A DNA stretch of 13,526 bases from a virus. This document shows, one piece after another, positions 1-13,526 of the stretch. The number at the start of each line of letters is the position of its first letter. The stretch's first letter is position 1. The DNA lies in UHGV virus genome UHGV-1806156; one strand, given 5' to 3'. The position numbers were made by a program, and so were the translations under genes. Below the pieces are notes generated by a model that worked only from the letters and a program-made list of their open reading frames with translations, was not told the DNA's origin and made no database searches.

Positions 1-98
1 TAAGGGAAAAGCTTAACCCACAAATGAAAGCCTAAAGAGCATGAGCGACTCTTTAGGCAATCTGTGTGGGGAACATCGGAGCAGTATGTGAAGTATGA
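1..98. repeat. Left copy of a 98-bp direct repeat (same as 13429-13526)
   Basis: Positions 1-98 match 13429-13526 base for base except one T/C difference (position 54 vs 13482). The repeat runs to both window edges, so its full extent is unknown. Confidence 0.9.
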
Positions 99-437
99 GC
101 AGACTGTGATGATGTGACTTATATCTATGCGTATAACAGCCTCCGCTGTTTACGCTCTTTGTGTGGGTCCGGCGAATGCGTCAGCATGAGGCCCACAATG
201 TGGACCGCTGCCGAAAGCTTGCCAGCGCCGGAAGGAGGCAGCAAAGAGTCTCCCGCGCGCATGTGTGGGCGTATACGTAAGATATACATTCATAAATCCA
301 ATTCTAGGCCCATAAATGGCCTTCTGGCTGCATTAACTAGTGTGAGTAGTGCAATTGCATTACCTGACCTCTAAATCGCGTTAGAATTGATTTTAGAGCG
401 CCTAAGGCAAAAAGTGCTCTCCCTCCCTTGTGGGCCA

Positions 438-566: not shown

Positions 567-595
567 TTGACAATTGGTTGACAATATGATAAGAT
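567..595 (+). promoter_or_regulatory. Sigma70-like promoter candidate (-35 TTGACA 567-572, 17-bp spacer, -10 TAAGAT 590-595)
   Basis: Hexamers read directly; a second TTGACA at 578-583 overlaps it. Sits upstream of the sORF at 631. Confidence 0.3.
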
Positions 596-630
596 TATAA
601 ATAGGGGGAGAAACAGATCCGGAGGTCAAT

Positions 631-780
631 GTGGAAATTACTGATGCAATAGCGATCATCAACCTGGCTGTACTGTGGTGCGGTGTTGCCTACATAGCCG
701 GAGTGACTGCAATCGACAATCTTGAAGAAAAAATGATAGATAAATACAAAAAGATTGTTGACAATTTGACGAATGTCTGA
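631..780 (+). CDS. Small ORF, 49 aa, GTG start, predicted single transmembrane helix (VEITDAIAIINLAVLWCGVAYIAGVTAIDNLEEKMIDKYKKIVDNLTNV)
   Basis: GGAGG at 621-625 sits 5 nt before GTG 631, stop TGA at 778-780. Hydrophobic N-terminal stretch. Below the 60-aa cutoff of the ORF track. Confidence 0.3.
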   Translation: MEITDAIAIINLAVLWCGVAYIAGVTAIDNLEEKMIDKYKKIVDNLTNV

Positions 781-786
781 TAAAAT
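758..786 (+). promoter_or_regulatory. Sigma70-like promoter candidate (-35 TTGACA 758-763, 17-bp spacer, -10 TAAAAT 781-786), likely driving the operon starting at 913
   Basis: Near-consensus hexamers with 17-bp spacing, about 125 bp upstream of ATG 913. Confidence 0.45.
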
Positions 787-1141: not shown

Positions 1142-2038
1142 ATGGCAAGTAATTACGGGGAGGTTTTTAATCCCCATTTCGAACGCCTCATTCAGTATAC
1201 TTTTGATAAACCAGTTGCAACAACAATTGCTAATAAAAAGACTGGAAAAACAAAAGAAAGATTTAAGTTAGACCTGACGGAGGTTACAATTTATGGAAAA
1301 ATGGCAGGTTTTCATTTAAACGGGCAAGAAATATTTATCTCAGAGCAGACCTTAGCAAAAATATGTGGAGTGAGCGATAGAAAAATCCGTGATTCGATTA
1401 AATCTCTAGAAAATGCCGGGCTTATTTCTAAAGATAATCGGAAAGGCATGTCTAATATTTACAAACTACTAATTACTCCTTCACAGGTTTGCAAAATGTG
1501 TGACGCTCAAGGAATACAACCTATGAGCAATGCAGGTGGTGAAGATAAACAGCCTCAGGAAGCCCCAAAACAAGCCGCACAGCAAGCTAAAAAGGCTAAA
1601 GTAGTGCAATTGCCTACCCAAGACACTAAAGCGCCTCAAATTAACGCTGTTAGTGACAAGCCACGCCGGGGCCGTCCTGTGAAAGATGTAACCGATGGAG
1701 GGTGGATCGCCCTGGGTGAGAGTGAGGCTAAAGGCATAATGCGATCACTGTGGGAAAGCAAATACAAAGATTTAAACAAACGTCGCCCGATCCTTTTGTC
1801 AAAGATTCAGGAGGATTTTTACACCACAGAAGAGGTAAGCCGACATAAAGGGAAAATAGAGGGTGAAATCTGGAAACCGGAAGAATACTGGCATTTAACC
1901 AGACCTGTGTTTATTTTTGCAAATAAGCTTATTGGGATGGGATTTGAAATATTGTTAGATAAAACCTGCGGAGATTATCCCGAAATATTGTGGAGAAATG
2001 TTAGAAAAAATAAAAAAGGCATTTTAGAGTTTAAATAA
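1142..2038 (+). CDS. Putative replication initiator-like protein with winged helix-turn-helix, 298 aa
   Basis: ATG at 1142 preceded by GGGGGA RBS, right after the stop of the 913 ORF; the track's 1085 start is an upstream in-frame extension. The segment FISEQTLAKICGVSDRKIRDSIKSLENAGLISKDNRKG resembles the wHTH of phage and plasmid replication initiators. Function from motif recognition only. Confidence 0.45.
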   Translation: MASNYGEVFNPHFERLIQYTFDKPVATTIANKKTGKTKERFKLDLTEVTIYGKMAGFHLNGQEIFISEQTLAKICGVSDRKIRDSIKSLENAGLISKDNRKGMSNIYKLLITPSQVCKMCDAQGIQPMSNAGGEDKQPQEAPKQAAQQAKKAKVVQLPTQDTKAPQINAVSDKPRRGRPVKDVTDGGWIALGESEAKGIMRSLWESKYKDLNKRRPILLSKIQEDFYTTEEVSRHKGKIEGEIWKPEEYWHLTRPVFIFANKLIGMGFEILLDKTCGDYPEILWRNVRKNKKGILEFK

Positions 2039-2085
2039 AAACACTGATAATCTTATTTTTTACAGTATTCTAAAGGAAATTTAAA

Positions 2086-2805: not shown

Positions 2806-2878
2806 GTTTTATCTCTTCGATTTATTTATTTTCGACTCACTTTAACCCCTTCCGGGGCTCTAATTTAAGGAATTCCAA

Positions 2879-3322
2879 ATGTCTCAAATCGCTAAATTAT
2901 TATCCCAGGTTATCAAAGCTATCGACGCTGAAGATTCAAAAGTTCGCCAGGATCTTTTAGATGGCAAGTTTACCAACACCCTGGCATTTACCCGTGACAA
3001 AGAGCACTTCTTAAAACACAGGCATCACGCTTTTCCTGAATGCAAGTCCGCTAATGGTGATGTTTTCTATGTCGATTTGGTGGTTATGGCATGTAGGCTG
3101 TGGATGATTCAGGACCTTATGCGCCAACACGGTGATGATCCTCTTATCAGCATGTGGAACAGCGCCCAGGATGGCTTTGTGATTGCTGCCTTATCCAAAT
3201 CAATGATTGAGGCAGAAGGGGCAAGCCTTCAGAACATGGCAGATCTCTTTGAAATAAGCGTAGGAATGATGCAGACCATGCTCCAAGCTGTCAAACCTCT
3301 CAAACTGGTTAATCTTGATTAA
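2879..3322 (+). CDS. Hypothetical protein, 147 aa
   Basis: AAGGA RBS before ATG 2879; no recognisable family. Confidence 0.55.
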   Translation: MSQIAKLLSQVIKAIDAEDSKVRQDLLDGKFTNTLAFTRDKEHFLKHRHHAFPECKSANGDVFYVDLVVMACRLWMIQDLMRQHGDDPLISMWNSAQDGFVIAALSKSMIEAEGASLQNMADLFEISVGMMQTMLQAVKPLKLVNLD

Positions 3323-3382
3323 GCTATTGATAAATAAGCACTCCCCATTTTTTGGGGGGTGCATCAATGAGAGGATATGCCT

Positions 3383-3766
3383 ATGAATATTGAAGAAATG
3401 ATAGTTGAATTCGAAGAGGGTGATTTCCTGGAAGAAGGGGAGTTTAGTTACTCCCATTTTAAACAGGCGTTATTTAGCAGCGATGATAAACCACACGTTA
3501 GTGATCTTAACGACGATGATTTATGTCGTTGGGTATGCACCCGCTTAAATGAAGATGGAAAGTATACAGGCCAAAACTTTCCAAATCTCTATTTCAAAGC
3601 ACAAACATTTGAGGAAGGGCAAAGAGTGAAAAACCTGGTCGATAAAATGCTGTCAGCCGGATATTTGCATAAAGAATTATTAAATCCTAAAGCTGAAAGC
3701 AAGCGCCATTATATTTTTGTGTGGACTATTGGCGATAAGTGTCCACTAAGACGCAAAGGCAAATGA
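3383..3766 (+). CDS. Acidic protein, 127 aa; possible tail assembly chaperone by position
   Basis: GAGAGGA (3369-3375) is 7 nt before ATG 3383; the track's ATG 3377 is too close to the RBS. Acidic N-terminus and position two genes upstream of the tape measure gene. Function is positional inference only. Confidence 0.4.
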   Translation: MNIEEMIVEFEEGDFLEEGEFSYSHFKQALFSSDDKPHVSDLNDDDLCRWVCTRLNEDGKYTGQNFPNLYFKAQTFEEGQRVKNLVDKMLSAGYLHKELLNPKAESKRHYIFVWTIGDKCPLRRKGK

Positions 3767-3767
3767 T

Positions 3768-4004
3768 ATGAATACCTACGAAAAGATTTATCAAAAACTG
3801 GTTAAGGACTCCGAAGACACGCCCGAAGGGGTGACAGTAGGTCACCTGCCAGAGGCAGCGAAAGAGGGGGCCACCATTATTAAAAGTGGCTCCCACACAG
3901 AAGGCCTCTCAATCGAAGAGCTGGCGGAGAAATATAATATTGATAAAGAGGCCCTGAAAAGGGCTATTTCATTATCAAAATCTTTAAGACAGGGCGAGGT
4001 ATAA
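3768..4004 (+). CDS. Hypothetical protein, 78 aa, translationally coupled between the acidic protein and the tape measure gene
   Basis: Starts 1 nt after the preceding stop and ends 1 nt before ATG 4006. Confidence 0.45.
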   Translation: MNTYEKIYQKLVKDSEDTPEGVTVGHLPEAAKEGATIIKSGSHTEGLSIEELAEKYNIDKEALKRAISLSKSLRQGEV

Positions 4005-4005
4005 A

Positions 4006-6153
4006 ATGGCAATGAAGGAAGTAGCCAGACTAACAAACGTTATTTACTGGGACTCTGATAAATCCTCCTGGCGAAAAGAAGTTAAACGGCTTGAGGATTA
4101 TAAAAAATCCTGGAAGAAAGCTACCGACGATATAGCTAAAGCTGATTTTAAATCTAATCAGGCTGTGCTCAGAACACAAAGAACACGCGCTAAGGTGGAA
4201 GAGCAGATAGCCAGAGCTCAGAGGAAACAACAGGAAGCACAGAAGAAACAACGTGCTCAGGCTGTCAGCCGTCTGACCGGGGGCAACAATGCCGAACTTA
4301 ACTCTATGCGCAAGTTCTACCAACAACAAGCCAGAGAAGCCGCCAGACAACAAAAACTGTTAGATCGTAGTGTTGGAGATGTTCAGCACAGAAAAGCACG
4401 TGTAGGGGCCAACAGTGCACGAATCAGCAGCATGTTTGATGGCTCCCTGGTTGCTCAGTTCCAGGGGCGCATTCAAAGAGTTAATGCTGATTATGCTAAA
4501 GGGGCTATAAACCTGCAGACCTATAATCAGAGGATGGCCCGACTCAGATCTGAAATGAAGATGGCAACAGCCGAAGCCGGAAAATTCCAGAGCAGACTAG
4601 ACAGAGCTGCGGCCGCAGGCTCCAGGCTGCATGACAACCTGGGGAAACTGAATTCCACACTGGGCAAGATAGCCATTGGCCTTACTGCCGCTGGCTGGGG
4701 TGTTCAGCGTGCTGTTAGTGGTGCTATGGGTAGCCTTGCAGATCGCAACAGTGCTTATTTCGGCTTAATGTCACAGAACAAGGATGATAAATCAAAAACT
4801 GATCAGCAGATGGCTTTTATCAAGAACACAGCCTACACCTACGGGATGGATCAGCGTGAGATGGAAGGCGGCTACATGCGCTTTGCTGCAGCTACCCCCA
4901 CCATGAAGGAATCTGATAAGCAGGCTCTCTTTGAGGCTATGGCTATTAAAGGCCGCTCAGTGGGTGCTACTGGCGAGCAACAGAACAGGGCGCTTGTTGC
5001 GGTCCAACAAATGGCTTCAAAAAATAAAGTCATGGCGGAGGAGCTGCGTGGGCAGCTGGCAGAAGCCTTTGCAGGCTCACAACAGGACTTCCAACAGGCC
5101 GCTATTGATGCCGGAATCATCAAAAATACCCAGGAATTCGATAAAGCCCTTAAAGATGGCAAAATCACCCTGGACAAGCTACTTCCTTCCCTAGTGAAAA
5201 TTTGGGGTGCTGCAAAAGAAACTAAAGCTTTTGCTGAATCCATGAAACAGCCAGAAGTAGCAATGCAGCGCATGAAAAACAGCTTTAACGAGCTGGCGAT
5301 TCAGTTTATGGGTGTTGTGGATCCTGCGGATGGCGTTATTAGCTTATCTGAATCTCTGATCTCCATCTTTGAAGACCTCACCACTGATATGGACGGCAGC
5401 GGGAGCGCGGCAAAACAGTTCGGTGAGGCAGTCGGGTCTGCCATGCGTGAGATCATGTATTGGGTAGGCTTCGCTAAGGGATATATTGAGGTCAAGGCTA
5501 AAGAGTTCGGCATGACCGGATCAGAGGTTGGCGAGCTTATCGGGAAACTGGTAGTCGGCTTAGCTGGTCTGAAAGTTATTACCACACTGCTTTCCCCTCT
5601 AACCGGATTTGTTTCACTTGTCACCCAACTGATTTCTCTGATAGGCAAGATTCCAGGTCTGGGCAATCTCGTTAAGGGTGCTGGCGGGGCAGTCGCTGGA
5701 AGCCCAACAACAGCATTAGCCGCTGGCAGTGCCGCAGGTGTGGGTGTTGGTGTCGCTGGCGCACTAGGCGCTAAGACGGTAGGTGAGAAGTTCAGAGGAT
5801 GGATGCAAAGCAAGGCTGATCAGTTCGGGGAGTGGGCTAAATCTAAAGGCCTGCTTAGCGATGAACAGGACGCTATGACCAAACCGGGGGCCTATAACCA
5901 TAGCTACATCAACAAGGGAGCTTCCTTTAATCCATATCCAACCATTAGCCCTTCACGTCCTACTCCTAGCACTGGTACGGCTATTCAGAATGGCGGATAT
6001 CAACCAGTCCAAGTAAATGTAGCCCCACAAGGTGAGATTTCCGGCAAATGGGAGATAACCATCGATGAGGGGGGAATTGCCAGGGTGATCCAGAAGGAAG
6101 TTAGCGATCAGTTGGATTGGAAAGCCACACAGGAATCTAACCAGCTTTTCTAA
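4006..6153 (+). CDS. Phage tail tape measure protein-like, 715 aa
   Basis: Long Q/R/K/A-rich helical N-terminal region, a central segment that reads like a tape-measure domain (AAATPTMKESDKQALFEAMAIKGRSVGATGEQQNRALVAVQQMASKNKVMAEELRGQLAEAF), and a Gly/Ala-rich hydrophobic block (LAGLKVITTLLSPLTGFVSLVTQLISLIGKIPGLGNLVKGAGGAVAG...). Recognised by eye, not by search. Confidence 0.6.
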   Translation: MAMKEVARLTNVIYWDSDKSSWRKEVKRLEDYKKSWKKATDDIAKADFKSNQAVLRTQRTRAKVEEQIARAQRKQQEAQKKQRAQAVSRLTGGNNAELNSMRKFYQQQAREAARQQKLLDRSVGDVQHRKARVGANSARISSMFDGSLVAQFQGRIQRVNADYAKGAINLQTYNQRMARLRSEMKMATAEAGKFQSRLDRAAAAGSRLHDNLGKLNSTLGKIAIGLTAAGWGVQRAVSGAMGSLADRNSAYFGLMSQNKDDKSKTDQQMAFIKNTAYTYGMDQREMEGGYMRFAAATPTMKESDKQALFEAMAIKGRSVGATGEQQNRALVAVQQMASKNKVMAEELRGQLAEAFAGSQQDFQQAAIDAGIIKNTQEFDKALKDGKITLDKLLPSLVKIWGAAKETKAFAESMKQPEVAMQRMKNSFNELAIQFMGVVDPADGVISLSESLISIFEDLTTDMDGSGSAAKQFGEAVGSAMREIMYWVGFAKGYIEVKAKEFGMTGSEVGELIGKLVVGLAGLKVITTLLSPLTGFVSLVTQLISLIGKIPGLGNLVKGAGGAVAGSPTTALAAGSAAGVGVGVAGALGAKTVGEKFRGWMQSKADQFGEWAKSKGLLSDEQDAMTKPGAYNHSYINKGASFNPYPTISPSRPTPSTGTAIQNGGYQPVQVNVAPQGEISGKWEITIDEGGIARVIQKEVSDQLDWKATQESNQLF

Positions 6154-6204
6154 TATTGTGATCAAAATCAATAAGTTAGCCTGACCGGATAAACTCCAGG
6201 CAAG

Positions 6205-6242
6205 AAAAAAGCCCCTAAGTGTTAACAAAGGGGCTCTTCTCC
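6205..6242. terminator. Hairpin terminator between convergent operons (stem AGCCCCT 6210-6216 / AGGGGCT 6229-6235)
   Basis: 7-bp GC-rich stem with 12-nt loop. On the minus strand it is followed by a run of six T (plus-strand A 6205-6210); on the plus strand by a weaker T-rich tract. Confidence 0.5.
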
Positions 6243-6266
6243 GGTATCCTTTTGATGCGGGGCGAA

Positions 6267-6310
6267 CCTGCTAACAAAAATCAACCTCTCGCGAGACTAA
6301 TGTTAGCAGG
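6267..6310. other. Stem-loop with perfect 10-bp stem (CCTGCTAACA / TGTTAGCAGG) whose 24-nt loop carries TCAACCTCTCGCGAGA
   Basis: Inverted repeat read directly. The loop contains the 10-bp palindrome TCTCGCGAGA and matches the leader motif at 10547 and 11089. Confidence 0.4.
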
Positions 6311-6655
6311 TTGCCGGAAGGTAAGTCAACTCCGGCCTATAAACCTTAAAGCGACTATAAAATCGCCCCGCCAATTGTGATGATCCGACCTTTGAGGCGG
6401 GTCCGGTGCCCAGGGGGGTGCAGTGATGCACAAACCAGGCAACGATAAACAGGCTAACAGTGATAGCGGCGCTCTCTCAGCGCACTAAATCCTAACCAGT
6501 CCGGGAAAGAGGCTGGCTCTATCGACCGCTCATGCACGGGACAATGCATACCTGATAAAGGATTCTCACAAGGGACCAATCGCGAGAAAAAGAAGTGGAA
6601 AGGGGCTGATTTGTGGTGTATCACTACGGCCTCAAAAGAACACTATTGTCTTTTT

Positions 6656-7114
6656 TCAGCCTCTCCCAACATTTGACCAGTATTTGATTGCACCGATCAA
6701 ATCATCATAGTGGCGCATTGCATCATTGAAGCCTTTATAGCTTGCCCATTGTGGGGAAACCTTGTTATTGCTGAATTGCCCACTAATCAGGATAGTCTCC
6801 AGAATGTCGGCATATCGCTTACCAATACGCTTTCTGACGGCCTCAGAGCTCCCACCCTTTACGATTGCATTAATCAGGGCTTTTGTGTGTCTCAGGCTCT
6901 CATAGAGCATTGCAGCGTGGGCAGATTCCATAAAGGAGCGCTTAGGCAAATCACCCCACCCCTCAGAGTGGATAGCCGCCAGTGTGGCGTAATTCAGGCC
7001 GCTATAGTGCTTTCCGTCATCCCAGCCAACCGCTACACCTTCCATCTGTGAGAGCTCTTTATGCAGCTTATCCATCATGCGCTTGTCTATGGTGCAACGG
7101 ACTTTCGGACTCAT
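6656..7114 (-). CDS. HK97 gp10-like head-tail (neck) family protein, 152 aa
   Basis: Segment GVAVGWDDGKHYSGLNYATLAAIHSEGWGDLPKRSF fits the pattern I associate with the HK97 gp10 family. GGAG RBS upstream; ATGA overlap with the preceding gene. Confidence 0.45.
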   Translation of the reverse strand: MSPKVRCTIDKRMMDKLHKELSQMEGVAVGWDDGKHYSGLNYATLAAIHSEGWGDLPKRSFMESAHAAMLYESLRHTKALINAIVKGGSSEAVRKRIGKRYADILETILISGQFSNNKVSPQWASYKGFNDAMRHYDDLIGAIKYWSNVGRG

Positions 7115-7914
7115 TTGTTGATCTCCGTGATGTCATCAAGCAACATGTTGGCCTTATCAATCATCGTTTCGTGGAATTCATTCGACACAACAGACTTATC
7201 ACCTGCGGCAATCTTTCCAGCTGCCTCTCCCTGTGCATATTCCCCGCGATGCTTAGCCCTGGTAGATTTCGTAGCAGCATTGCCAGCGTTACTACCCTCT
7301 TTAGCACTGTTAACAGCACCCTTTTGCTGTGTTTTATTCACCTTCTTACTGTTAGTGAAAACTCCGGCATTTTCGACCATCTTCACCTTGAAGGTGCGGA
7401 ATTCTTCAAAGGTGCAATCGATAGTGATGCAGTCACCGGAGGAAGAGCTACGCTTAACTTCACATTTCGTCATGATGAAGTTCTCAAGGAGTCCGGCATC
7501 TTCACTCACCAGGCTAACCAGCTGGCGCTTGTCTCTCATTTCCATAAGTGCCTGAACAGCGGCAGCAGGGCGCATAGATTCACGGGGATTATCTGGATCA
7601 GTGTTCCGGTCGATGTAGTTCTCTTTCCGGATAATGTGAGGGGAAGAGGTAATAATACCCGTAAAGCTGACAGATTTATCTTTAATGACGGCATGGTCTG
7701 ACATGGTGGTGCCATCTTCTACTGCATAGCTCGACTTTTCGACAGGGAACGAATAACGAACATCAGAGATAGAGTCAAAGAAGATAGCCACATTATCGGT
7801 ATAGTTGAAGCCATCCATTATATTTTTGTTTTGTGAATATCCCCCACACATAACAGTGAATGCGGGAGATCTCGACTCAGCTTGTTTTGCAGCTGTCAGA
7901 GCATCACTAGCCAT
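7111..7914 (-). CDS. Hypothetical protein, 267 aa (start placed at the ATG at 7914)
   Basis: Minus ORF 7111..7941 begins at a GTG; the in-frame ATG at 7914 has GGAGG 10 nt upstream. Normal amino-acid composition, unlike the Cys/Ser/Leu-rich plus-strand ORFs it overlaps. Confidence 0.55.
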   Translation of the reverse strand: MASDALTAAKQAESRSPAFTVMCGGYSQNKNIMDGFNYTDNVAIFFDSISDVRYSFPVEKSSYAVEDGTTMSDHAVIKDKSVSFTGIITSSPHIIRKENYIDRNTDPDNPRESMRPAAAVQALMEMRDKRQLVSLVSEDAGLLENFIMTKCEVKRSSSSGDCITIDCTFEEFRTFKVKMVENAGVFTNSKKVNKTQQKGAVNSAKEGSNAGNAATKSTRAKHRGEYAQGEAAGKIAAGDKSVVSNEFHETMIDKANMLLDDITEINK

Positions 7915-8042
7915 AGTAAACATGCCTCCAAATTGGTCCACTTCATGGATTTGGCTAAAGCCAAACCTGCAAAAGATGCAGGCAAAATAGAACTTATCGT
8001 TGCCCTGCGTGAATTCTGATAAAAAGACAGGGCTATCTATCG

Positions 8043-8303
8043 TTATTTTGCAAAACGATTATGCGCATTCAGGGCTTTTTTGCGGTCCTGGGCTTGTTTG
8101 CGTGCAATAAAATGTTCGAAAGTCTCGGCCCAGGTGCATTTATTATATTCACGGTATTTATGCATAGCCTGGCGGCTAACGTCATAGCAGGCGGCAAATG
8201 TGGAGATACGCAGGAATTCCGGCAGATCCTCGTCATCGATATGGATAATATCAAAAGGCACGTCGTCACGGTCGCCGTATAAAACAATTTTCATAAAAGA
8301 CAC
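8043..8303 (-). CDS. Small HTH DNA-binding protein, 86 aa
   Basis: GAGGTG RBS upstream of ATG 8303. HTH-like segment LRISTFAACYDVSRQAMHKY. Role unknown. Confidence 0.5.
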   Translation of the reverse strand: MSFMKIVLYGDRDDVPFDIIHIDDEDLPEFLRISTFAACYDVSRQAMHKYREYNKCTWAETFEHFIARKQAQDRKKALNAHNRFAK

Positions 8304-8327
8304 CTCAAAAACTTAAGACGGGGATAA

Positions 8328-8377
8328 CAAAAAAGGGAAGAGGGAAAGACCTATCCCCGATCTCTCACCTCTTCCCT
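8328..8377 (-). terminator. Hairpin terminator just downstream of the capsid gene (stem AGGGAAGAGG 8334-8343 / CCTCTTCCCT 8368-8377)
   Basis: 10-bp stem followed on the minus strand by a T run (plus-strand A 8328-8333), immediately after the capsid stop at 8384-8386. Confidence 0.45.
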
Positions 8378-8383
8378 TTGCTT

Positions 8384-9418
8384 TTATTTAGCCTTGGCAG
8401 CGGCGGCGGTGTTTTTAACACTCACTTTCACCACAACTTCAGGCATCATGTTCATGAAAGCATAAGAGGATTCAACGAAGATTTCGCGTTTGCCTCTGGA
8501 CTCTTCCATATACATGAAAGCTTCACGTGCAGCGCCGTTTGCCAGCTTCAGGTTGCGAGCGCAAGGGCCGAAAAATTGAGTATAAACGCCCACCATATCG
8601 CCTAACGCATGCGGCTGGAACTGTGGGACTAGATAAGCAGTATTCTCTGGCAGACTATCCATTTGCACCACACGCAGGGCTAAGCCCGGAATGCGGAAGG
8701 TCGGGAAGCCCGGCAGAATATCCTCAGGGAACATCAGACCTTTGTCGGTAATGTTCTGATTGCCGAACAACAGCACTTTACGGAGCAGTTCATCAGTCTG
8801 AATAGCGGTAAACAGTTCAGCACGGCAGAACAGGGTGAAACCACGCAGGGCACGAACGACACCACGCTGTTTAACCTTGCTCAGTGCAACCAGGTCCTGC
8901 AGCTGTTTAAGGATATCTTTAGCTAGATCCACTTCTGAAGTGGTTTGCTGTGCGCCCAGCAGTTCGCACACATTCAGTTCTTTACCCTTGGTGAGGATAA
9001 TTTTGTTCTCAAAGAGAGCAAGCTGGCGTGCTTCTTCGTGGGTCTGGCGTAAGCCTTCGCCAAGCTGAATAACACGACGAGCGGTTACAGACTCTAGATT
9101 CTCTTCGGAATCTTTGCCCGGAACACGGATACCCTGCCAGTCAGAAGGATAAATAGCACTTGATGCGGCAGTGAATGCCATATCACCCGTGCCCGTTTCA
9201 CGCTCATCTGCGGTAATGGTCGCCATCTGTTCACCGTAGCGCGGATACTGACCGAAAGCGGTTTGTTTCACCTGGCGAACTTTGTCATATTCAAATTTAA
9301 AGGTATTGCACAGAGCAGTAGTGTTGAAGATATCCATTGCAGAAATAATCATGTTATCCGGCGGGATATCTTTAATCAGACCACACAGATCGCGAACTTC
9401 GAATTCTTTCTTAGCCAT
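8384..9418 (-). CDS. Major capsid protein, lambda gpE family-like, 344 aa
   Basis: ATG at 9418 with AAGGAGG RBS 8 nt upstream; the track's extension to 9517 has no RBS. N-terminus FEVRDLCGLIKDIPPDN fits the L-x-G-x-[IV]-x-x-x-PP pattern seen in gpE-family capsids. Size (lambda gpE is 341 aa) and a small beta-rich gene directly upstream agree. Confidence 0.6.
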   Translation of the reverse strand: MAKKEFEVRDLCGLIKDIPPDNMIISAMDIFNTTALCNTFKFEYDKVRQVKQTAFGQYPRYGEQMATITADERETGTGDMAFTAASSAIYPSDWQGIRVPGKDSEENLESVTARRVIQLGEGLRQTHEEARQLALFENKIILTKGKELNVCELLGAQQTTSEVDLAKDILKQLQDLVALSKVKQRGVVRALRGFTLFCRAELFTAIQTDELLRKVLLFGNQNITDKGLMFPEDILPGFPTFRIPGLALRVVQMDSLPENTAYLVPQFQPHALGDMVGVYTQFFGPCARNLKLANGAAREAFMYMEESRGKREIFVESSYAFMNMMPEVVVKVSVKNTAAAAKAK

Positions 9419-9429
9419 TTTCAACCTCC

Positions 9430-9765
9430 TTATTGTGCAACACGCAAATCGCCATTGCTGGCAGCAACAACAGCGGCTAAGCCGTCTTTGTCCACATAGG
9501 CCGGATTGATGTAGCAACCTTTGTTCGCAACAACGATAAAGGAATCACCAACTTCAGCACGTTCTACAACCAGCAGCGGAGTTTTATCTGTGTGCGTTGC
9601 TTTAACGAAGGTCTCAACCTCGCCAGCCTCAGTCACCACAACAACAGTGCCAGCCGGAATCTCAGCCTTAACTTTGTTTTTAACTTCAACGTCGCGAATA
9701 CTAAATTGCTCATCTGCGGCGTATGAAATGATGTGTCCGCGTGTGCGGATAGTCATATCTCTCAT
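9430..9765 (-). CDS. Putative head decoration protein (lambda gpD-like), 111 aa
   Basis: AGGTGA RBS before ATG 9765. Small, beta-rich (Val/Thr/Ala/Gly), immediately upstream of the capsid gene as in lambda D-E. Assignment is positional and compositional. Confidence 0.4.
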   Translation of the reverse strand: MRDMTIRTRGHIISYAADEQFSIRDVEVKNKVKAEIPAGTVVVVTEAGEVETFVKATHTDKTPLLVVERAEVGDSFIVVANKGCYINPAYVDKDGLAAVVAASNGDLRVAQ

Positions 9766-10093
9766 TTGATCACCTGCGATTTAAATTAACTCCCCTCAAA
9801 GGGCTCAGGTATAACCTCTCAAACCACGACAGGCTCGGGCCGAAAAGTTATGCCGGAAATCTAAAGGGGGATTGATATAAGGAGAGGGAGATAGCCCCGC
9901 ACCGTCCAAGCGGGGGCTATTCCACATGGGGAAACCAACAACAGTTGGCTGATAGTTCACTGCATGGTTACAGGTTGCTAGAGAGCACTATCACGAAAGG
10001 CACTCCCCCGGATCAGTTCAGGCTGCGGTCACATCAGCGGGGAAATACCTTTCGGGATAGCTACCCACACAGAAAACCCGCAAAAGAAAACTG

Positions 10094-10102
10094 TGTGGAT
10101 AA
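10094..10102 (-). promoter_or_regulatory. DnaA box (TTATCCACA on the minus strand) inside an inverted repeat (CCACACAG 10065-10072 / CTGTGTGG 10091-10098)
   Basis: Exact 9-mer match to the DnaA box consensus, read directly. Confidence 0.35.
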
Positions 10103-10248
10103 CTAGCCCTGTAGGGAGAATAAGGAGAATTAATCGACCACTCTAAGATGATCATGGGTAGTGTTATTTATAAGGCGGCACCGCTACCTGGTCGCCTTTA
10201 CTTTGGAGGAAAATACGGCAAATCACCTTCGCTAAATGATTCACGGTA

Positions 10249-10268
10249 TACTGTATATTATATCAGTA
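10249..10268. promoter_or_regulatory. LexA (SOS) box-like palindrome TACTGTATATTATATCAGTA
   Basis: CTG-N10-CAG architecture with flanking TA and an AT-rich core, as in gammaproteobacterial LexA boxes. Lies in the large intergenic region between the capsid operon and the small-peptide operon. Confidence 0.45.
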
Positions 10269-10546
10269 TTTACTCACATTGTCAACACCCTGATTATATA
10301 AATTCTAATAATTAGCGTAGTAACGGTATTTTCAGACTGCTATCAATCCCATCAATACGTCATCTCATCGCATCTATCATAACTTTTTCATTCGTGATAG
10401 ATATCTTTTGATCAATATCAATGTTTTCCGGGGATTTGCCCGGCTATAGTTCGAATCAAGGAAGGGGAGCATTGATAGAGACACCCAAAGGGGTGACTGA
10501 AAGTCACCTGGCATAGCCAGTGAAAGCACCCAACCGAACAAACAAA

Positions 10547-10564
10547 TCAACTTCTCGCAAAAGG
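10547..10564 (+). promoter_or_regulatory. Conserved leader motif TCAACTTCTCGCAAAAGG, 26 nt upstream of ATG 10573
   Basis: Repeated with the same spacing upstream of ATG 11115 (11089-11107); a third variant sits in the hairpin loop at 6281-6296. Confidence 0.4.
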
Positions 10565-10572
10565 TGATAGTT

Positions 10573-10695
10573 ATGGGTATCAAGAACAGTGCCAGCGCAT
10601 GGCAAAAGGCCAGGTTTCATCACCCACACATTGTTAAGGCAATTGAGGTGGTTGGAGTTTTAGCCCTGATGTTAGCTCTGTGTGTGGAGGTGTGA
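10573..10695 (+). CDS. Small hydrophobic peptide, 40 aa (MGIKNSASAWQKARFHHPHIVKAIEVVGVLALMLALCVEV)
   Basis: AAGGTG RBS before ATG 10573; C-terminal hydrophobic helix. Below the ORF-track cutoff. Confidence 0.35.
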   Translation: MGIKNSASAWQKARFHHPHIVKAIEVVGVLALMLALCVEV

Positions 10696-10696
10696 G

Positions 10697-10777
10697 ATGG
10701 GCAAAGGAGGCAAAGCATTTTTAATAGGTCTGGCTATCCTGGATGTTCTACTAATCATGATTAAGCGGAGTTTATGA
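10697..10777 (+). CDS. Small hydrophobic peptide, 26 aa (MGKGGKAFLIGLAILDVLLIMIKRSL)
   Basis: ATG 10697 starts 1 nt after the previous stop, with AGGTG just upstream. One predicted TM helix and a basic C-terminus. Confidence 0.3.
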   Translation: MGKGGKAFLIGLAILDVLLIMIKRSL

Positions 10778-10796
10778 ACAGCATTGAGAGGAGTTT

Positions 10797-11057
10797 ATGA
10801 CGGGGGCTAAAGATATCAGGAGACTGAGGGAAGAGCTGATAGCTGAAATTAAAACTAAGGCAAAGCAAATGGAGATAGCCGCACAAATGGATGTAGCGGA
10901 ACAGATGTACAAGATGGTTGAGGAGGGAACGCCACGACAGGTTATCGCTAAAACCTTCGGTGTGGGGATCGCCACCGTGCACAGAAGGCTGAAAGCATAT
11001 GCTGACTACCACAATATCGAGAGAAAGGAGGATGGGAGATTCAGGAAAGCTAAATGA
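10797..11057 (+). CDS. Small DNA-binding protein with a Hin/resolvase-type C-terminal HTH, 86 aa, no recombinase catalytic domain
   Basis: GAGAGGAG RBS before ATG 10797. C-terminus EEGTPRQVIAKTFGVGIATVHRRLKA closely matches the Hin invertase HTH; the N-terminus is a short charged helix only. Confidence 0.55.
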   Translation: MTGAKDIRRLREELIAEIKTKAKQMEIAAQMDVAEQMYKMVEEGTPRQVIAKTFGVGIATVHRRLKAYADYHNIERKEDGRFRKAK

Positions 11058-11088
11058 TGTAAACGGTCCAACAGGTTACTAACTTAAT

Positions 11089-11107
11089 TCAACTTCTCGC
11101 AAAGGGG
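11089..11107 (+). promoter_or_regulatory. Second copy of the leader motif (TCAACTTCTCGCAAAGGGG), 26 nt upstream of ATG 11115
   Basis: 15/15 identity with the copy at 10547 over TCAACTTCTCGCAAA, same distance to the start codon. Confidence 0.4.
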
Positions 11108-11114
11108 TACCACT

Positions 11115-11702
11115 ATGAACATTAAAACTATCATTGCAGCCCTCACCATTGCCTTTAGTGCCAACACCGCAGCTATTGATGTAGGGGCCGTAAAAGATGC
11201 ATCTTGTGCTGATAAACTGGCGGCACTTGATGCGGGATTCGATGCACCCCAGGGCTATCAAATGGGGCTATCTCTTAAAAATATTATTCTCCCCATGGAA
11301 TCTGGCGCTTATGTATACGGAGCGATAGGAAAACTGGAGAAGCCGGAAATTGACCTGCAGGGTGTGAGAGCGAAGATCACTAAAAGAAATGAAAGCCTTT
11401 GTGATGTAGCTGAAATAGCTTTCATGTCAGACGATGAAAAATCTATTTTAGTCTTTTGCAAAGATAGCGATGATAATGATCGCTTCTTTAAGATCACCCA
11501 CAACAGGCCAATCTCTTTCTACTCTAATGCTACTATGGGCGCGGGTATGCAGTGGCTGAAGAGAGCTAAATTAACTGAGATCGACATTGAAAAAGAGGCC
11601 AATGCAGGCAGTTATGGATTCTGGAAAGGCTGGACTAAATACACGTTCCAACAATGCGGCATCGATAGTCAGGCCTACGACAACGGATTTTGGTTTTTCT
11701 AA
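11115..11702 (+). CDS. Secreted or outer-membrane protein with N-terminal signal peptide, 195 aa
   Basis: N-terminus MNIKTIIAALTIAFSANTAA has the basic/hydrophobic/A-x-A shape of a Sec signal peptide. C-terminus ends in aromatics (GFWFF), as many outer-membrane beta-barrels do. No family recognised. Confidence 0.55.
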   Translation: MNIKTIIAALTIAFSANTAAIDVGAVKDASCADKLAALDAGFDAPQGYQMGLSLKNIILPMESGAYVYGAIGKLEKPEIDLQGVRAKITKRNESLCDVAEIAFMSDDEKSILVFCKDSDDNDRFFKITHNRPISFYSNATMGAGMQWLKRAKLTEIDIEKEANAGSYGFWKGWTKYTFQQCGIDSQAYDNGFWFF

Positions 11703-11722
11703 CCTACTAAGTTAATCCCGCC

Positions 11723-11750
11723 AGGGGGCCATCACGGCCCCTTTTTATTT
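11723..11750 (+). terminator. Rho-independent terminator after the signal-peptide gene
   Basis: GC-rich stem GGGGGCC (11724-11730) / GGCCCC (11736-11741) with 5-nt loop, followed by TTTTTATTT. Confidence 0.55.
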
Positions 11751-11800
11751 ATCCCCTATTTAACCCCTATTTAATGGGTATTTAATGCCTATTTATTGAT
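11746..11800. repeat. Five tandem 11-bp units of form TATTTAANNNN (helically phased A/T tracts)
   Basis: TATTTATCCCC, TATTTAACCCC, TATTTAATGGG, TATTTAATGCC, TATTTATTGAT read directly; an 11-bp period suggests bent DNA or phased binding sites. Confidence 0.5.
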
Positions 11801-13063
11801 TTAATCCGTTTTATGCCACAACCGCCCGGTTGACAGAGTAAGATAGAGTGTGTAACCCTCTTTCGTAATACCAATAAAATCAATAGTTTAGCTCAATTGG
11901 CCTTTTCTCTATTTTTGTCAAATTTAACATACCCTCAAAAACTGCAAAATCTGGCTGCAAGATTATCTGCAGCTGGATTTCTTGCGCCTCAATTTGTGGT
12001 ATCACCCTGACTAGTTTGTGCATAAATTGAACAGTTTTTAACATTTCCTCCTCACCTGGTAACCACACAAAAAGCTAAAAACGAGGCACAGATAATCTTA
12101 GAGGCCTGTTTTCTTGTTATCACTCTGGTAACGTCGTAGAAGTGATTTTGATGAAAGATGACCTACCCTATTACACCCCCATTTTTTGTTATCACAATTG
12201 CATCCTGTGCGGTGTATGGCTATGTGCTGAAAGCGGTCTTATGTGTGGGTGTCAGAAATATCCATTAGCGGTATTAATACCCGTCGGAGATTCGTCTGAG
12301 GTGCCAGGCAGGCGCTCCCCCACCTCCCTTTTTTCTTCTAACAATTCTCAAATATCACACCACTGCCCACCACGTTGCTATTATGTTAATTCTTAAGCTT
12401 TGCTGTATGTTGTGCACATTATTTATTCAGGTGGCTGTACGTAAATTCTGTGCCCACTGATCATGATTTTTAAATCAGATTTTGTAGTGCGCTTTATTAG
12501 TGTAGATAAGATCTATTATGTTAAATGCATCTCTCTCAACACTTAAAATCAATGACTTAGAGGTTAGGATGCACTAACACCCCACACAGCACATTAGACA
12601 TATAGATGTCTATACCCCACATTTTTGATTGTTTTGTAGTCATTCCCCTGATCATTTAACCAGTATAGTTTGCTCCCTGCAGACCACAAAATCGGAATTT
12701 ACATCTGATTAACATAATCTGTTAGCATGATCACCATTACCCACACAACAATAACCACATGTAAGCCTCTTCAGGCAATTTATCGGCGTGTTGGTGTGAA
12801 CAGTCTTTCATGTTCTTTATGTATTCATTGTCCTGTGTGAGGGAAGGATGGACTGCCCCAGGGGCCATACTTATGATGCCCGGTCAACATACCTGTCGAT
12901 AAAATCAAAGGGTGTTGATCTGCATATTTCCCACACATGAGAGGAAATCAAAGCAAAGAGAGAGGAGAGAGGTTTGTTAGTCAAAATAGGTCAATAAGGG
13001 TGTATTTCCACACAGACATGATGAGATAACCTGTCGGTATTTCCTACAACTCTTGCACATACC

Positions 13064-13341
13064 CCGGAAGATTTTTCCGGTGTCTCCCACCTGTGAAGAA
13101 TTTTCACACCTGTAAATCCATACAGCACGGTAAAAACTACCGCACCACCTGTGAAAATATTTTACTACTCCCTTTAGTCATACCCCTTTCAGTCATACTC
13201 AGGCACCACACCCCGGTAAATATTTCCCTACCACCCCGGAGAATTTCTCCGGTGTCCAAGCTGTATCCAATACATACCCCGGAAAATTTCTCCGCACTAC
13301 TACGGAAGATTTCTCCGGTGTACCCCGGAAGATTTCTCCGA
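13064..13341. repeat. Iteron-like array of at least 8 copies of a 17-bp quasi-palindrome (consensus about CCGGARRATTTCTCCGG)
   Basis: Copies at 13064-13080, 13236-13252 (perfect palindrome CCGGAGAATTTCTCCGG), 13279-13295, 13302-13318 and 13325-13341, the last three spaced exactly 23 bp apart. Related variants at about 13094-13108, 13150-13164 and 13214-13226. Confidence 0.6.
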
Positions 13342-13428
13342 CTAATAAATAAAGTAATAGACCACACAATAGATCCCCCCTAACCCCCAAGGGGAATGGG
13401 GAGGGATCAGAGAGTGGGGAAGGTTTTC

Positions 13429-13526
13429 TAAGGGAAAAGCTTAACCCACAAATGAAAGCCTAAAGAGCATGAGCGACTCTTCAGGCAATCTGTGTGGGGA
13501 ACATCGGAGCAGTATGTGAAGTATGA
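13429..13526. repeat. Right copy of the 98-bp direct repeat
   Basis: Matches 1-98 with one mismatch (C at 13482 vs T at 54). Confidence 0.9.

What the first reader, a model, noticed from the sequence alone, without database searches (positions are those of the whole stretch)
11703..13428. 1.7-kb gene-free region with origin-like architecture
No credible ORF lies between the terminator at 11723-11750 and the right repeat. The region contains the five phased 11-bp A/T units (11746-11800), several CCCACACA-type motifs resembling degenerate DnaA boxes (near 12590, 12742, 12932, 13010) and the iteron array. This layout resembles a plasmid-type origin, but it is very long for a 13-kb element and may also hold packaging or partition sites.
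Basis: partly seen in the sequence, partly recalled or inferred. Interest (0 to 1): 0.5.

Follow-up and report, generated by a model that had tools for sequence, protein, structure and literature searches.

The report
Plasmid origin and maintenance DNA hub
The gene-free stretch is real, conserved non-coding DNA in a small E. coli plasmid that carries phage capsid and tail genes; it most likely holds the replication origin, a site for resolving plasmid multimers, and a very over-represented 7-base motif (CCACACA) whose function is unknown.

Summary
The window is a circularly permuted 13,428-bp element (1-98 = 13429-13526). The gene-free zone therefore runs from 11703 across the junction to about 630, roughly 2.36 kb.

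**It is truly non-coding but under constraint.**
- There is no 3-base periodicity of substitutions (63/52/58), whereas every gene shows it.
- Divergence in the 1.1-kb core is 0.048, against about 0.16 at synonymous sites.

- Five to six palindromic 19-bp iterons with 23-bp phasing sit next to a conserved AT box.
- Iteron sequence changes between relatives in step with the winged-helix region of the Rep-like protein.

**The "degenerate DnaA boxes" are not DnaA boxes.** CCACACA occurs 20 times in the circle (1.4 expected), across the whole element. It is also the top 7-mer in a distant relative with no alignable DNA. The copies converge on the iteron/hairpin zone.

**New features found here:**
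- a dif-like XerC/D site at 12499-12526, with a perfect XerD arm;
- two IHF sites;
- inward-facing terminators at both edges;
- a motif order that matches the distant relative.

About 700 bp of the constrained core remains unexplained. Overall this is an ordinary iteron origin plus a Xer site, embedded in an unusually long, motif-rich hub of an undescribed plasmid family.

The parts
11723..11750 (+). Intrinsic terminator of the upstream 195-aa gene. It forms the left, inward-facing transcriptional insulator of the hub.
   Evidence: 8-bp stem, 6 GC pairs, T-run. The distant relative L010 has an equivalent hairpin plus T-run at the same place.
11746..11800 (.). Array of 11-bp phased A/T-rich units (CCCCTATTTAA type). 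Copy number varies between relatives.
   Evidence: TRF period 11. This is the 4th least stable 50-bp duplex of the element. Copies are gained and lost in relatives. L010 has an analogous 10-bp unit array, TTAAATGCGT x2.4.
11877..11890 (+). IHF consensus site 1 (AAATCAATAGTTTA).
   Evidence: It lies 33 nt from a TATGTTAA motif. A collinear IHF site exists in L010.
11897..12990 (.). Constrained non-coding core, 92-98% identical and almost indel-free across relatives.
   Evidence: Its p-distance is 0.048, against pS of about 0.16 and pN of about 0.02. It shows no codon periodicity. There is no Rfam hit and no strong RNA fold signal.
11948..11979 (.). Invariant 12-bp-arm inverted repeat (AATCTGGCTGCA-N8-TGCAGCTGGATT). 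Role unknown.
   Evidence: Fold z = -4.6. It is invariant in all relatives.
12499..12526 (+). dif-like XerC/XerD site: AGTGTAGATAA-GATCTA-TTATGTTAAAT.
   Evidence: XerD arm 11/11 and XerC arm 7/11 against E. coli dif, with a 6-bp centre (dif sequence from PMC2731167). A score of 18/22 was reached in 1 of 100 randomisations. The XerD arm TTATGTTAAAT is exact in every fetched relative that carries the region, and the alignments show no variable position across the 28-bp site. L010 has an 18/22 site at the collinear position.
12546..12559 (+). IHF consensus site 2 (AAATCAATGACTTA), 20 nt from the XerD arm.
   Evidence: The same Xer-arm/IHF adjacency is seen in L010.
12707..12735 (-). Weaker second dif-like sequence in inverted orientation (GGTGATCATGC-TAACAGA-TTATGTTAATC).
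   Evidence: 16/22, 7-bp centre. It is one of four TATGTTAA copies, all of them in the core.
12063..12069 (+). CCACACA heptamer copy 1 of the left, plus-oriented series. The other copies are at 12582, 12741, 12931, 13008 and 13362.
   Evidence: The copies at 12063, 12582, 12741 and 12931 are kept in all 10 relatives.
12931..12972 (+). CCACACA followed by a GA-rich tract, at the right edge of the conserved core.
   Evidence: L010 has the same pairing (CCACACA + AGAGAGAGAGAAGAGG) at the collinear position.
12991..13260 (.). Variable zone holding scattered palindromic iteron-like sites of several specificities, including GTGAAGAATTTTCAC at 13087-13113 and 13145-13165.
   Evidence: (D19).
13270..13341 (+). 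Phased iteron array: three 23-bp-spaced copies, with further copies at 13062 and 13234. This is the proposed Rep-binding origin core.
   Evidence: Co-variation with the Rep allele is shown.
13342..13361 (.). Conserved AT-rich box CTAATAAATAAAGTAATAGA abutting the last iteron. It is the candidate unwinding element.
   Evidence: The pattern is found in 8 of the fetched loci, covering several different Rep/iteron types.
13372..13486 (.). Three GC-rich hairpins. The third (13458-13486) is a minus-strand intrinsic terminator and forms the right, inward-facing insulator.
   Evidence: z -3.9 and -5.3. The ~100-nt block is invariant apart from three positions, one of them in the loop of the third hairpin, in the 9 relatives that carry it.
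63..268 (-). Three minus-oriented CCACACA copies (63, 160, 262) in the variable continuation of the gene-free zone.
   Evidence: Two to three minus-oriented copies are found here in nearly all relatives, although the sequence is otherwise poorly alignable.
567..786 (+). Strong sigma-70 promoters of the rep operon (567-595 and 758-786). They mark the end of the gene-free zone.
   Evidence: 10/12 and 11/12 matches, both with TG.
1142..2038 (+). Rep-like initiator gene (298 aa, winged helix). It is hypervariable between relatives.
   Evidence: PHROG replication-initiation / O-like families at E 1e-10 to 1e-6, and Pfam HTH_36. There are 100 distinct 90% clusters, nearly all on 13.3-14.4 kb contigs.

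Best explanation
The gene-free zone (11703 through the circular junction to about 630) is the cis-acting maintenance hub of a 13.4-kb plasmid.

1. **Origin.** Replication starts at the right-hand end. Dimers of the element's Rep-like winged-helix protein bind the palindromic 19-bp iterons (13062-13341, the last three phased at 23 bp). They open the adjacent conserved AT box (13342-13361).
2. **Multimer resolution.** In the conserved core, a dif-like site (12499-12526) flanked by an IHF site lets host XerC/XerD resolve plasmid multimers.
3. **Architecture and insulation.** A second IHF site and the phased A/T repeats supply bent, easily melted architectural DNA. Terminators at both edges face inward, and promoter-like sequences are few, so the hub is kept free of transcription.
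4. **Unknown factor.** The co-oriented CCACACA heptamers converge on the iteron/hairpin zone. They bind an unidentified factor that is conserved across clades.

What is shown:
- the region is non-coding and under constraint;
- all the motifs are present and occur more often than chance predicts (weakly so for the bare IHF consensus);
- iterons co-vary with Rep;
- the motif order is collinear in a distant relative.

What is inferred: that the iterons fire replication, that XerCD acts on the dif-like site, and any role for CCACACA.
For: **Non-coding but constrained.**
- Searches show no ORF and no codon periodicity.
- Core divergence is 0.048, against pS of about 0.16 and pN of about 0.02.
- The core is 92-98% identical and nearly gap-free.

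**Origin.**
- Iterons: 5 copies against 0.03 expected, with period 23.
- W and L001 have identical Rep and identical iterons.
- L002 and L005 share the Rep N-terminus and share CTGTTGGAATTTCCCACAG iterons.
- L003 and L009 use CGGTAAATATTTCCG, and L004 uses CTGTAAAATATTTTAC.
- L006 has an unrelated Rep plus an extra 450-bp insert of new repeats.
- W and L007 Rep differ at 19 residues, 9 of them within residues 83-106 of the winged helix. Their iterons differ only in the symmetric outer dinucleotides: CGG..CCG against (C/A)TG..CAC.
- The AT box next to the last iteron is kept across Rep types.

**Xer site.**
- Perfect XerD arm, 6-bp centre, 18/22 overall, p about 0.01 per element.
- The XerD arm is exact in every relative carrying the region.
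- The distant relative L010 has an independent 18/22 site at the same relative position, again next to an IHF site.

**Collinear architecture.** W and L010 share the same order without any alignable sequence. The order is terminator, A/T repeats, IHF, CCACACA series, Xer+IHF, CCACACA+GA tract, iterons, hairpins. The best local alignment scores 29, against 24 +/- 2.4 for shuffles.

**Insulation.** Terminators at 11723-11750 (+) and 13458-13486 (-) face inward. Promoter-like sites number 2, against 6.1 +/- 2.1 expected.

**Plasmid state only.** All matches are on plasmids; there are 0 chromosomal places in 5,426 E. coli genomes.
Against: - Rep is assigned only through PHROG and Pfam HTH matches. 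It has no PDB or NCBIfam relative.
- rep lies 1.2 kb from the iterons, and no iteron copy sits at its promoter.
- The AT box is only 20 bp long. No perfect DnaA box lies near the iterons.
- The XerC arm matches only 7/11, and no ArgR/ArcA/PepA accessory architecture could be shown.
- Three further TATGTTAA copies in the core suggest this motif may serve a different binder.
- About 700 bp of the constrained core (11897-12490 and 12560-12990) has no assigned function.
- CCACACA is unexplained.
- Lower divergence than at synonymous sites could partly reflect different recombination histories in a mosaic family.
Confidence: 0.6

Rival explanations
1. The hub is mainly a packaging region (cos/pac). 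The CCACACA copies would act like lambda cosB R-sites for a small terminase from the element or a helper phage. The IHF sites would bend the DNA, and cleavage would occur in the hairpin zone on which the motif arrays converge.
For: - The element carries capsid, tape-measure, Dit and tail-completion genes but no terminase or portal gene was recognised, so it must be packaged by something else.
- CCACACA arrays converge on 13370-13490 in all relatives.
- IHF sites are present.
- The family's size is tightly limited to 13.3-14.4 kb, and two trimer-length contigs exist at 39.6 and 40.4 kb.
Against: - The motif copies are 80-520 bp apart and are also spread through coding regions. They do not cluster within about 200 bp as in known cos or pac sites.
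- There is no nucleotide similarity to any of 50,697 phage records.
- No small terminase was recognised.
- The most conserved non-coding block of the element lies elsewhere, at 6154-6655 with p-distance 0.015, and is at least as good a packaging-site candidate.
Confidence: 0.2
2. The conserved core encodes one or more non-coding RNAs, for example an immunity, copy-control or anti-helper RNA.
For: - The core is constrained without coding signal.
- An invariant hairpin at 11943-11986 uses G-U pairs only on the plus strand.
- Local fold z-scores reach about -3 at 11900-12049 and 12600-12799 on the plus strand.
Against: - No Rfam hit at E<=1 in this region.
- Most 150-nt windows fold no better than shuffles.
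- No consistent compensatory pairs were found in 10 sequences.
- Promoter-like sites are depleted, and no promoter-terminator pair is visible inside.
- Terminators at both edges face inward.
Confidence: 0.1
3. Most of the region is stuffer DNA, kept only to hold the element at a packageable length. Only the iterons would be functional.
For: - The size range of the family is narrow.
- 35% of the element is non-coding.
- The gap length is similar, 2.2-2.9 kb, in all relatives.
Against: - Divergence is about 3-fold below synonymous sites and indels are few.
- There are long invariant stretches.
- The motif order is conserved in a relative with no alignable sequence.
Confidence: 0.08
4. This is a DnaA-driven, oriC-like origin in which the CCCACACA motifs serve as degenerate DnaA boxes.
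For: - The copies at 12931 and 13008 have one-mismatch DnaA-box contexts (TTTCCCACA, ATTTCCACA) within 130-80 bp of the iteron zone.
- One consensus box, TTATGCACA, lies at 12017-12025.
Against: - TTWTNCACA occurs at chance frequency (2 against 1.5).
- 15 of 20 CCACACA copies have 2 or more mismatches in the T-rich half.
- The invariant part is CCACACA rather than the DnaA-box core, with no flanking consensus.
- Copies occur throughout the element.
Confidence: 0.05
5. The core is an origin of transfer that is used in trans by a co-resident conjugative plasmid.
For: - The plasmid is typed non-mobilizable and has no relaxase.
- IHF sites and inverted repeats are typical of oriT regions.
Against: - A blastn search with 11-base words against 72,556 plasmids finds only members of this family, so the core is not homologous to any common oriT.
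- No nic-site consensus was recognised.
Confidence: 0.07

Closest known systems
Iteron-controlled origins with dyad-symmetric sites, as in phage lambda ori/O protein (also pSC101, R6K and mini-F type iteron plasmids)
   Same: Both have several 19-bp sites with internal dyad symmetry at about two helical turns' spacing, next to an AT-rich box. The cognate winged-helix initiator is encoded in cis, and the best PHROG hits include 'replication initiation O-like'. Initiator and iteron specificity change together.
   Different: - The iterons lie 1.2 kb upstream of rep rather than inside it (lambda) or directly abutting it (pSC101, mini-F).
- There is no iteron-type operator at the rep promoter.
- There is no perfect DnaA box beside the iterons.
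- A set of iteron-like sites of other specificities lies next to the active array.
- Rep has no detectable relative in the PDB.
Xer multimer-resolution sites: chromosomal dif, pSC101 psi, ColE1 cer
   Same: The site is 28 bp: an 11-bp XerD arm identical to E. coli dif, a 6-bp central region, and a partially matching XerC arm. The XerD arm is known to be the better-conserved arm (PMC2731167). From my own memory, the central region GATCTA and the XerD arm resemble psi (GATCCA / TTATGTTAAAC).
   Different: - The XerC arm matches only 7/11.
- No ArgR/ArcA/PepA accessory architecture could be demonstrated.
- An IHF site sits 20 nt beyond the XerD arm, which is not a feature of cer or psi.
- Three further XerD-arm-like TATGTTAA copies occur nearby.
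Phage lambda cos (cosN flanked by gpNu1 R-sites and IHF sites) and P1 pac (hexamer repeats on both sides of the cut, plus IHF)
   Same: A short repeated motif lies on both sides of a central hairpin/palindromic zone with opposite polarity, and IHF consensus sites lie among the copies.
   Different: The copies are spread over more than 1.5 kb and over the rest of the element. No terminase gene was recognised, and there is no sequence similarity to any phage record.
Polar chromosomal motifs (KOPS for FtsK, Chi for RecBCD)
   Same: CCACACA is a stand-alone 7-8-mer that is strongly over-represented and strand-biased (13+/7-). Its polarity flips at a defined point.
   Different: The sequence is neither KOPS nor Chi (0 Chi sites). 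The polarity flip coincides with the iteron/hairpin zone, not with the dif-like site. No translocase or nuclease partner is known.

Membership tests
Iteron-type Rep-dependent origin | Three or more directly repeated initiator-binding sites at helical phasing | tested here: met
   There are 5 copies plus 1 degenerate copy, against 0.03 expected. The last three are spaced 23 bp apart.
Iteron-type Rep-dependent origin | Cognate initiator gene on the same replicon | tested here: met
   The gene at 1142-2038 encodes a 298-aa winged-helix protein. It hits PHROG replication-initiation/O-like families at E down to 1e-10 and Pfam HTH_36. There is no PDB or NCBIfam support.
Iteron-type Rep-dependent origin | Iteron sequence matched to initiator specificity | tested here: met
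   Six Rep allele classes each have their own iteron. W and L007 differ in the winged-helix patch (residues 83-106) and in the outer iteron dinucleotides only.
Iteron-type Rep-dependent origin | AT-rich unwinding element adjacent to the iterons | tested here: inconclusive
   A conserved 20-bp AT box lies at 13342-13361. It is short and is not among the 12 least stable 50-bp windows.
Iteron-type Rep-dependent origin | DnaA box(es) beside the iterons | tested here: not met
   No TTWTNCACA lies within 900 bp of the iterons. Only one-mismatch contexts occur, at 12927 and 13004.
Iteron-type Rep-dependent origin | Supports autonomous replication | not testable with these tools
   This needs minimal-replicon cloning or origin mapping.
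Xer recombination site (dif/psi/cer) | 11-bp XerD-binding arm | tested here: met
   TTATGTTAAAT matches 11/11 and is exact in all relatives and in L010.
Xer recombination site (dif/psi/cer) | 6-8-bp central region and 11-bp XerC arm | tested here: inconclusive
   The centre is 6 bp. The XerC arm AGTGTAGATAA matches 7/11. The overall score of 18/22 was reached in 1 of 100 randomisations.
Xer recombination site (dif/psi/cer) | About 180 bp of accessory sequence binding PepA plus ArgR or ArcA (plasmid sites) | tested here: inconclusive
   There is only a single ArcA-like half-site, TGTTAATT, about 115 bp upstream, and no paired direct repeat. No consensus for PepA is available to test.
Xer recombination site (dif/psi/cer) | XerCD-dependent recombination | not testable with these tools
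   This needs a dimer-resolution assay in wild-type and xerC/xerD hosts.
DnaA-box cluster (oriC-like origin) | Multiple TTWTNCACA boxes | tested here: not met
   There are 2 in the whole window, against 1.5 expected.
Known structured RNA families (Rfam 15) | Covariance-model match | tested here: not met
   There is no hit in 11703-13526 at E<=1, and no covariation support.
Phage cos/pac site | Similarity to a helper's packaging site, or a cognate small terminase | tested here: not met
   There is no blastn match to phages, and no terminase family hit for any ORF. The helper is unknown, so this is not excluded.
Partition centromere (parS/parC type) | Adjacent ParA/ParB-type genes and clustered repeats | tested here: not met
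   No partition protein family was detected among the ORFs.

The most novel reading that the evidence does not exclude
CCACACA could be a new polar cis-acting signal of a previously undescribed family of plasmid-resident phage satellites. Arrays of the heptamer point from both sides at the origin/hairpin zone. They would be read by a conserved element- or helper-encoded protein to direct packaging, fork arrest or helper-triggered replication. On this reading the long hub integrates plasmid maintenance with phage hijacking.
Probability: 0.25. Interest if true: 0.75.

Novelty: new variant of a known kind. Interest (0 to 1): 0.55.

Why it matters
The element belongs to a widespread but apparently undescribed family of Escherichia, Shigella and E. 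albertii plasmids.
- About 100 Rep clusters exist, nearly all on 13.3-14.4 kb contigs.
- The plasmids carry capsid and tail genes, but no terminase, portal or integrase gene was recognised.
- One third of the DNA is non-coding.

The hub studied here is where replication, multimer resolution and possibly packaging of such an element would be controlled.

Three points matter beyond this one region:
- The natural Rep/iteron allele series pins a specificity change to a 24-residue patch and to two symmetric base pairs. That makes it a ready-made system for studying initiator-DNA recognition and incompatibility escape.
- The CCACACA motif is a clear, testable handle on an unknown DNA-binding activity.
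- At least one relative has acquired a strAB/tet resistance transposon, so how these plasmids are maintained and moved has practical relevance.

Tried and rejected
- **Protein-coding.** Rejected: no ORF over 96 aa, no codon periodicity, and the 54-62-aa minus-strand ORF (11880-12068) has substitutions evenly spread over codon positions.
- **Known RNA family.** No Rfam hit and no tRNA or tmRNA.
- **Structured RNA.** Sliding-window fold z-scores are mostly between -3 and +1.3 in the core. A search for compensatory pairs gave only mutually inconsistent candidates.
- **DnaA-box cluster.** Chance level.
- **Chi, Ter, GATC.** There are no Chi sites, no Ter core, and no GATC enrichment.
- **Helper-phage promoter or motif.** CCACACA occurs 19 times in the first 50 kb of rV5-like phage FV3. 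That is about 3x uniform expectation, and it is not among FV3's top k-mers, so there is no clear link.
- **Homology to phage DNA or other plasmids.** None beyond the family itself.
- **Finding relatives through the capsid protein.** Searches in viral and GTDB genome contigs gave nothing. A DNA-pattern scan of viral contigs also gave nothing. The metagenome scan gave 5 more close relatives and 1 chance hit, L018.
- **Extended context around CCACACA.** None beyond a preferred 5' C.
- **Literature.** Searches for a described plasmid-borne capsid/tail satellite of E. coli found nothing matching.
- **Small terminase.** PDB sequence searches for Rep, the 162-aa protein and the 86-aa HTH protein gave only a Hin-type HTH match for the last, so no small terminase was identified.
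Full report
**What the window is.** Bases 1-98 repeat at 13429-13526 with one mismatch, so the window is a circularly permuted 13,428-bp element.

Nucleotide searches find it only as small circular E. coli plasmids. Seven of 5,426 complete genomes carry it, and none of the matches is chromosomal. PLSDB holds five such plasmids, all typed non-mobilizable. Sizes are 13.2-13.7 kb, plus one 39.6-kb trimer.

The gene set is:
- a Rep-like winged-helix protein (PHROG replication-initiation/O-like families, E to 1e-10; Pfam HTH_36);
- a tape-measure protein;
- a Dit-like protein;
- a tail-completion protein;
- a major capsid protein;
- several small HTH proteins.

No terminase, portal, integrase or partition gene was recognised.

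**Checking the observation.**
- No ORF exceeds 96 aa.
- PGAP calls no gene there in any relative.
- The terminator, the 11-bp A/T units, the iterons and the CCCACACA motifs sit at the stated places.

Because of the circular overlap, the gene-free zone really extends to the rep-operon promoters at 567-786. That makes it about 2.36 kb; it is 2.2-2.9 kb in every relative.

**Non-coding yet constrained.** In a whole-element alignment of 10 relatives, 11897-12990 is 92-98% identical and almost gap-free. The flanking 195-aa gene, the iteron zone and rep are far more variable.
- Variable sites in every annotated gene pile up at one codon position (p between 1e-2 and 1e-23). Those in the core do not (63/52/58, p=0.59).
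- Mean pairwise divergence of the core is 0.048. Backbone genes give about 0.16 at synonymous sites and about 0.02 at non-synonymous sites.
- Five further metagenomic relatives fall in the same range.

So the core is neither filler nor a missed gene. It also does not look like a structured RNA:
- there is no Rfam hit;
- fold z-scores are unremarkable;
- there is no coherent covariation;
- sigma-70-like promoters are depleted (2 against 6.1 +/- 2.1).

The zone is bracketed by terminators that face inward: 11723-11750 on the plus strand and 13458-13486 on the minus strand.

**The origin part.** The iterons are 19-bp near-palindromes (CCCCGGAAGATTTCTCCGG).
- The last three are phased at 23 bp.
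- The array ends at a 20-bp AT box (13342-13361). This box is kept in relatives with different iterons.

Iteron sequence tracks the Rep allele:

| Relatives | Rep relationship | Iteron |
|---|---|---|
| W, L001 | identical Rep | identical iterons (CGGAAGATTTCTCCG core) |
| L002, L005 | share the Rep N-terminal domain | CTGTTGGAATTTCCCACAG |
| L003, L009 | same allele | CGGTAAATATTTCCG |
| L004 | own allele | CTGTAAAATATTTTAC |
| L006 | unrelated Rep | extra 450-bp block of new repeats |

The sharpest case is W against L007. Their Rep proteins differ at 19 residues, and 9 of these lie within residues 83-106, the C-terminal part of the HTH_36 match and the stretch just after it. Their iterons differ only in the symmetric outer dinucleotides: CGG...CCG against (C/A)TG...CAC. 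This is the signature expected for initiator-binding sites.

Across public data, Rep forms about 100 distinct 90% clusters at 40-93% identity. Nearly all sit on 13.3-14.4-kb contigs.

**What the CCCACACA motifs are.** They are not DnaA boxes. The relaxed consensus TTWTNCACA occurs at chance level. Only 5 of 20 copies have a T-rich 5' half.

CCACACA itself has these properties:
- It occurs 20 times per circle, against 1.4 expected.
- It is the most frequent 7-mer of the element.
- It is also the most frequent 7-mer of L010, a relative whose capsid protein is only 51% identical and whose gene-free zone has no alignable sequence.
- Beyond a preferred 5' C, no flanking consensus exists.
- Fourteen of the 20 copies are in non-coding DNA.
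- In all ten relatives, four to six plus-oriented copies lie left of the iteron/hairpin zone. Two or three minus-oriented copies lie right of it in nearly all of them, even though that right-hand sequence is not alignable between relatives.

I found no link to Chi, Ter, GATC or an rV5-like phage genome. The binder is unknown.

**New features in the core.**
- TTATGTTAAAT at 12516-12526 is identical to the XerD arm of E. coli dif (dif sequence from PMC2731167).
- With a 6-bp spacer and the arm AGTGTAGATAA (7/11), the site scores 18/22. That is the best score in the element, and 1 of 100 randomisations reached it.
- The XerD arm is exact in every relative.
- L010 has its own 18/22 site (AGTACGCATTT-CGTTTA-TTATGTTAAAT) at the same distance from the upstream gene.
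- All four TATGTTAA copies of the element lie in the core (0.58 expected).
- Two extended IHF consensus sites (AAAATCAATnnnTTA) lie at 11877 and 12546. Each is 20-33 nt from a TATGTTAA copy, and the same adjacency holds in L010.
- A motif map shows W and L010 are collinear. The order is terminator, A/T short repeats, IHF, CCACACA series, Xer+IHF, CCACACA+GA tract, iterons, GC hairpins. The best local alignment is no better than shuffles (29 against 24 +/- 2.4).

A motif order kept without sequence conservation argues for an organised set of protein-binding sites.

**Best explanation.** The zone is a transcriptionally insulated cis-acting hub. It combines:
- an iteron origin at its right end;
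- a dif-like multimer-resolution site with IHF in the conserved core;
- bent, A/T-rich architectural DNA at the left end;
- a polar heptamer bound by an unidentified factor.

I put this at 0.6. Replication and recombination activity are inferred, not shown, and about 700 bp of constrained DNA has no assigned role.

**Rivals.**
- The main rival is a packaging region of lambda cosB / P1 pac style (0.2). It is attractive because the element has virion genes but no terminase gene was recognised, and its size is tightly limited. It is weakened by the wide spacing and element-wide spread of the motif and by the absence of any phage homology.
- The remaining readings are an RNA gene, stuffer DNA, a DnaA-driven origin and an oriT. 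Each is less likely, for the reasons given in the rival explanations.

**Comparison with known systems.** The origin works like lambda-O or pSC101-type iteron origins and passes the testable membership features. The exceptions are an adjacent DnaA box (not met) and a convincing unwinding element (inconclusive). The Xer site passes on the XerD arm and the spacer. It is inconclusive on the XerC arm and the accessory sequences. Neither component is new in kind.

Three things are unusual:
- the length and constraint of the hub;
- the set of alternative iteron types beside the active array;
- the polar CCACACA arrays.

I found no published description of this plasmid family.

**Verdict.** The region is a new variant of a known kind of plasmid maintenance region, and it contains one unexplained motif. 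Interest: 0.55.

Noticed in passing
whole window (1-13428): The element looks like an undescribed plasmid-resident phage satellite. It has capsid, tape-measure, Dit and tail-completion genes, but no terminase, portal or integrase gene was recognised. Its capsid and tape-measure proteins are closest (about 25% identity) to those of rV5/FV3-like 137-kb myoviruses. About 100 Rep clusters exist, nearly all on 13.3-14.4-kb contigs from E. coli, Shigella and E. albertii. Two contigs of trimer length exist, at 39.6 and 40.4 kb.
   Followed up: partly
window 6154-6655: This 500-bp non-coding block between the convergent tape-measure and tail-completion genes is the most conserved part of the element (p-distance 0.015). 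It begins with CCACACA (6125) and an IHF site (6165). It folds strongly at 6200-6400 (z to -5). It is a candidate packaging site or RNA.
   Followed up: partly
window 9766-10796: This third long non-coding block contains a perfect sigma-70 promoter (TTGACA-17-TATAAT, 10285-10257, minus strand) for the capsid operon. Its leader is about 480 nt long and strongly structured at 9960-10160. The block also holds a CCACACAG...CTGTGTGG hairpin that overlaps the only perfect R1-type DnaA box, TTATCCACA at 10094-10102.
   Followed up: partly
window 3815-3864 and 10477-10526; L010:5535-5579: A 50-nt direct repeat (AGACACGCCCGAAGGGGTGACAGTAGGTCACCTGCCAGAGGCAGCGAAAG, 80% between copies) is also present at 85% identity in the distant relative L010. 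This suggests a conserved cis or RNA element.
   Followed up: no
window 758-868 and 2063-2088: A strong promoter (758-786, 11/12) is followed after about 50 nt by an intrinsic terminator (835-861), upstream of rep. This could be a small RNA or a transcription attenuator for copy control. Bases 810-835 are 81% complementary to 2063-2088, which lies at the start of the late operon.
   Followed up: no
window 436-449, 566-584, 711-725, 754-768, 10277-10290: The sequence TTGACAAT/ATTGACAAT recurs at the rep-operon and capsid-operon promoters, and arms 744-805 and 10238-10299 are 71% complementary. This could be a shared operator for an element-encoded repressor.
   Followed up: no
window 11115-11702: The 195-aa ORF just left of the hub starts with what looks like a signal peptide (MNIKTIIAALTIAFSANTAA, my reading of the translation). 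It is one of the most variable genes of the family (about 62% nucleotide identity, and 173-236 aa in relatives). It behaves like an exchangeable accessory gene.
   Followed up: no
L012 (NTNY01000053.1) 13452-21041: One relative is a 30-kb version. It carries aminoglycoside phosphotransferase (strAB-like), a transposase and tetR-type genes, inserted in the 6154-6655 interval. The family can therefore acquire resistance determinants.
   Followed up: no
window 5569-5968: The C-terminal part of the tape-measure gene falls to 41-57% identity (79% in 5569-5668) between relatives that are otherwise about 95% identical. This points to a swapped or diversifying module.
   Followed up: no
window 54 vs 13482: The single mismatch between the two copies of the terminal overlap lies in the stem of the third hairpin. 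T gives a perfect stem and C gives a mismatch. This points to population heterogeneity rather than a clean assembly overlap.
   Followed up: no
whole window: Only 65% of the element is covered by plausible genes, leaving 4.7 kb non-coding. That is far below what is usual for phages or small plasmids.
   Followed up: partly
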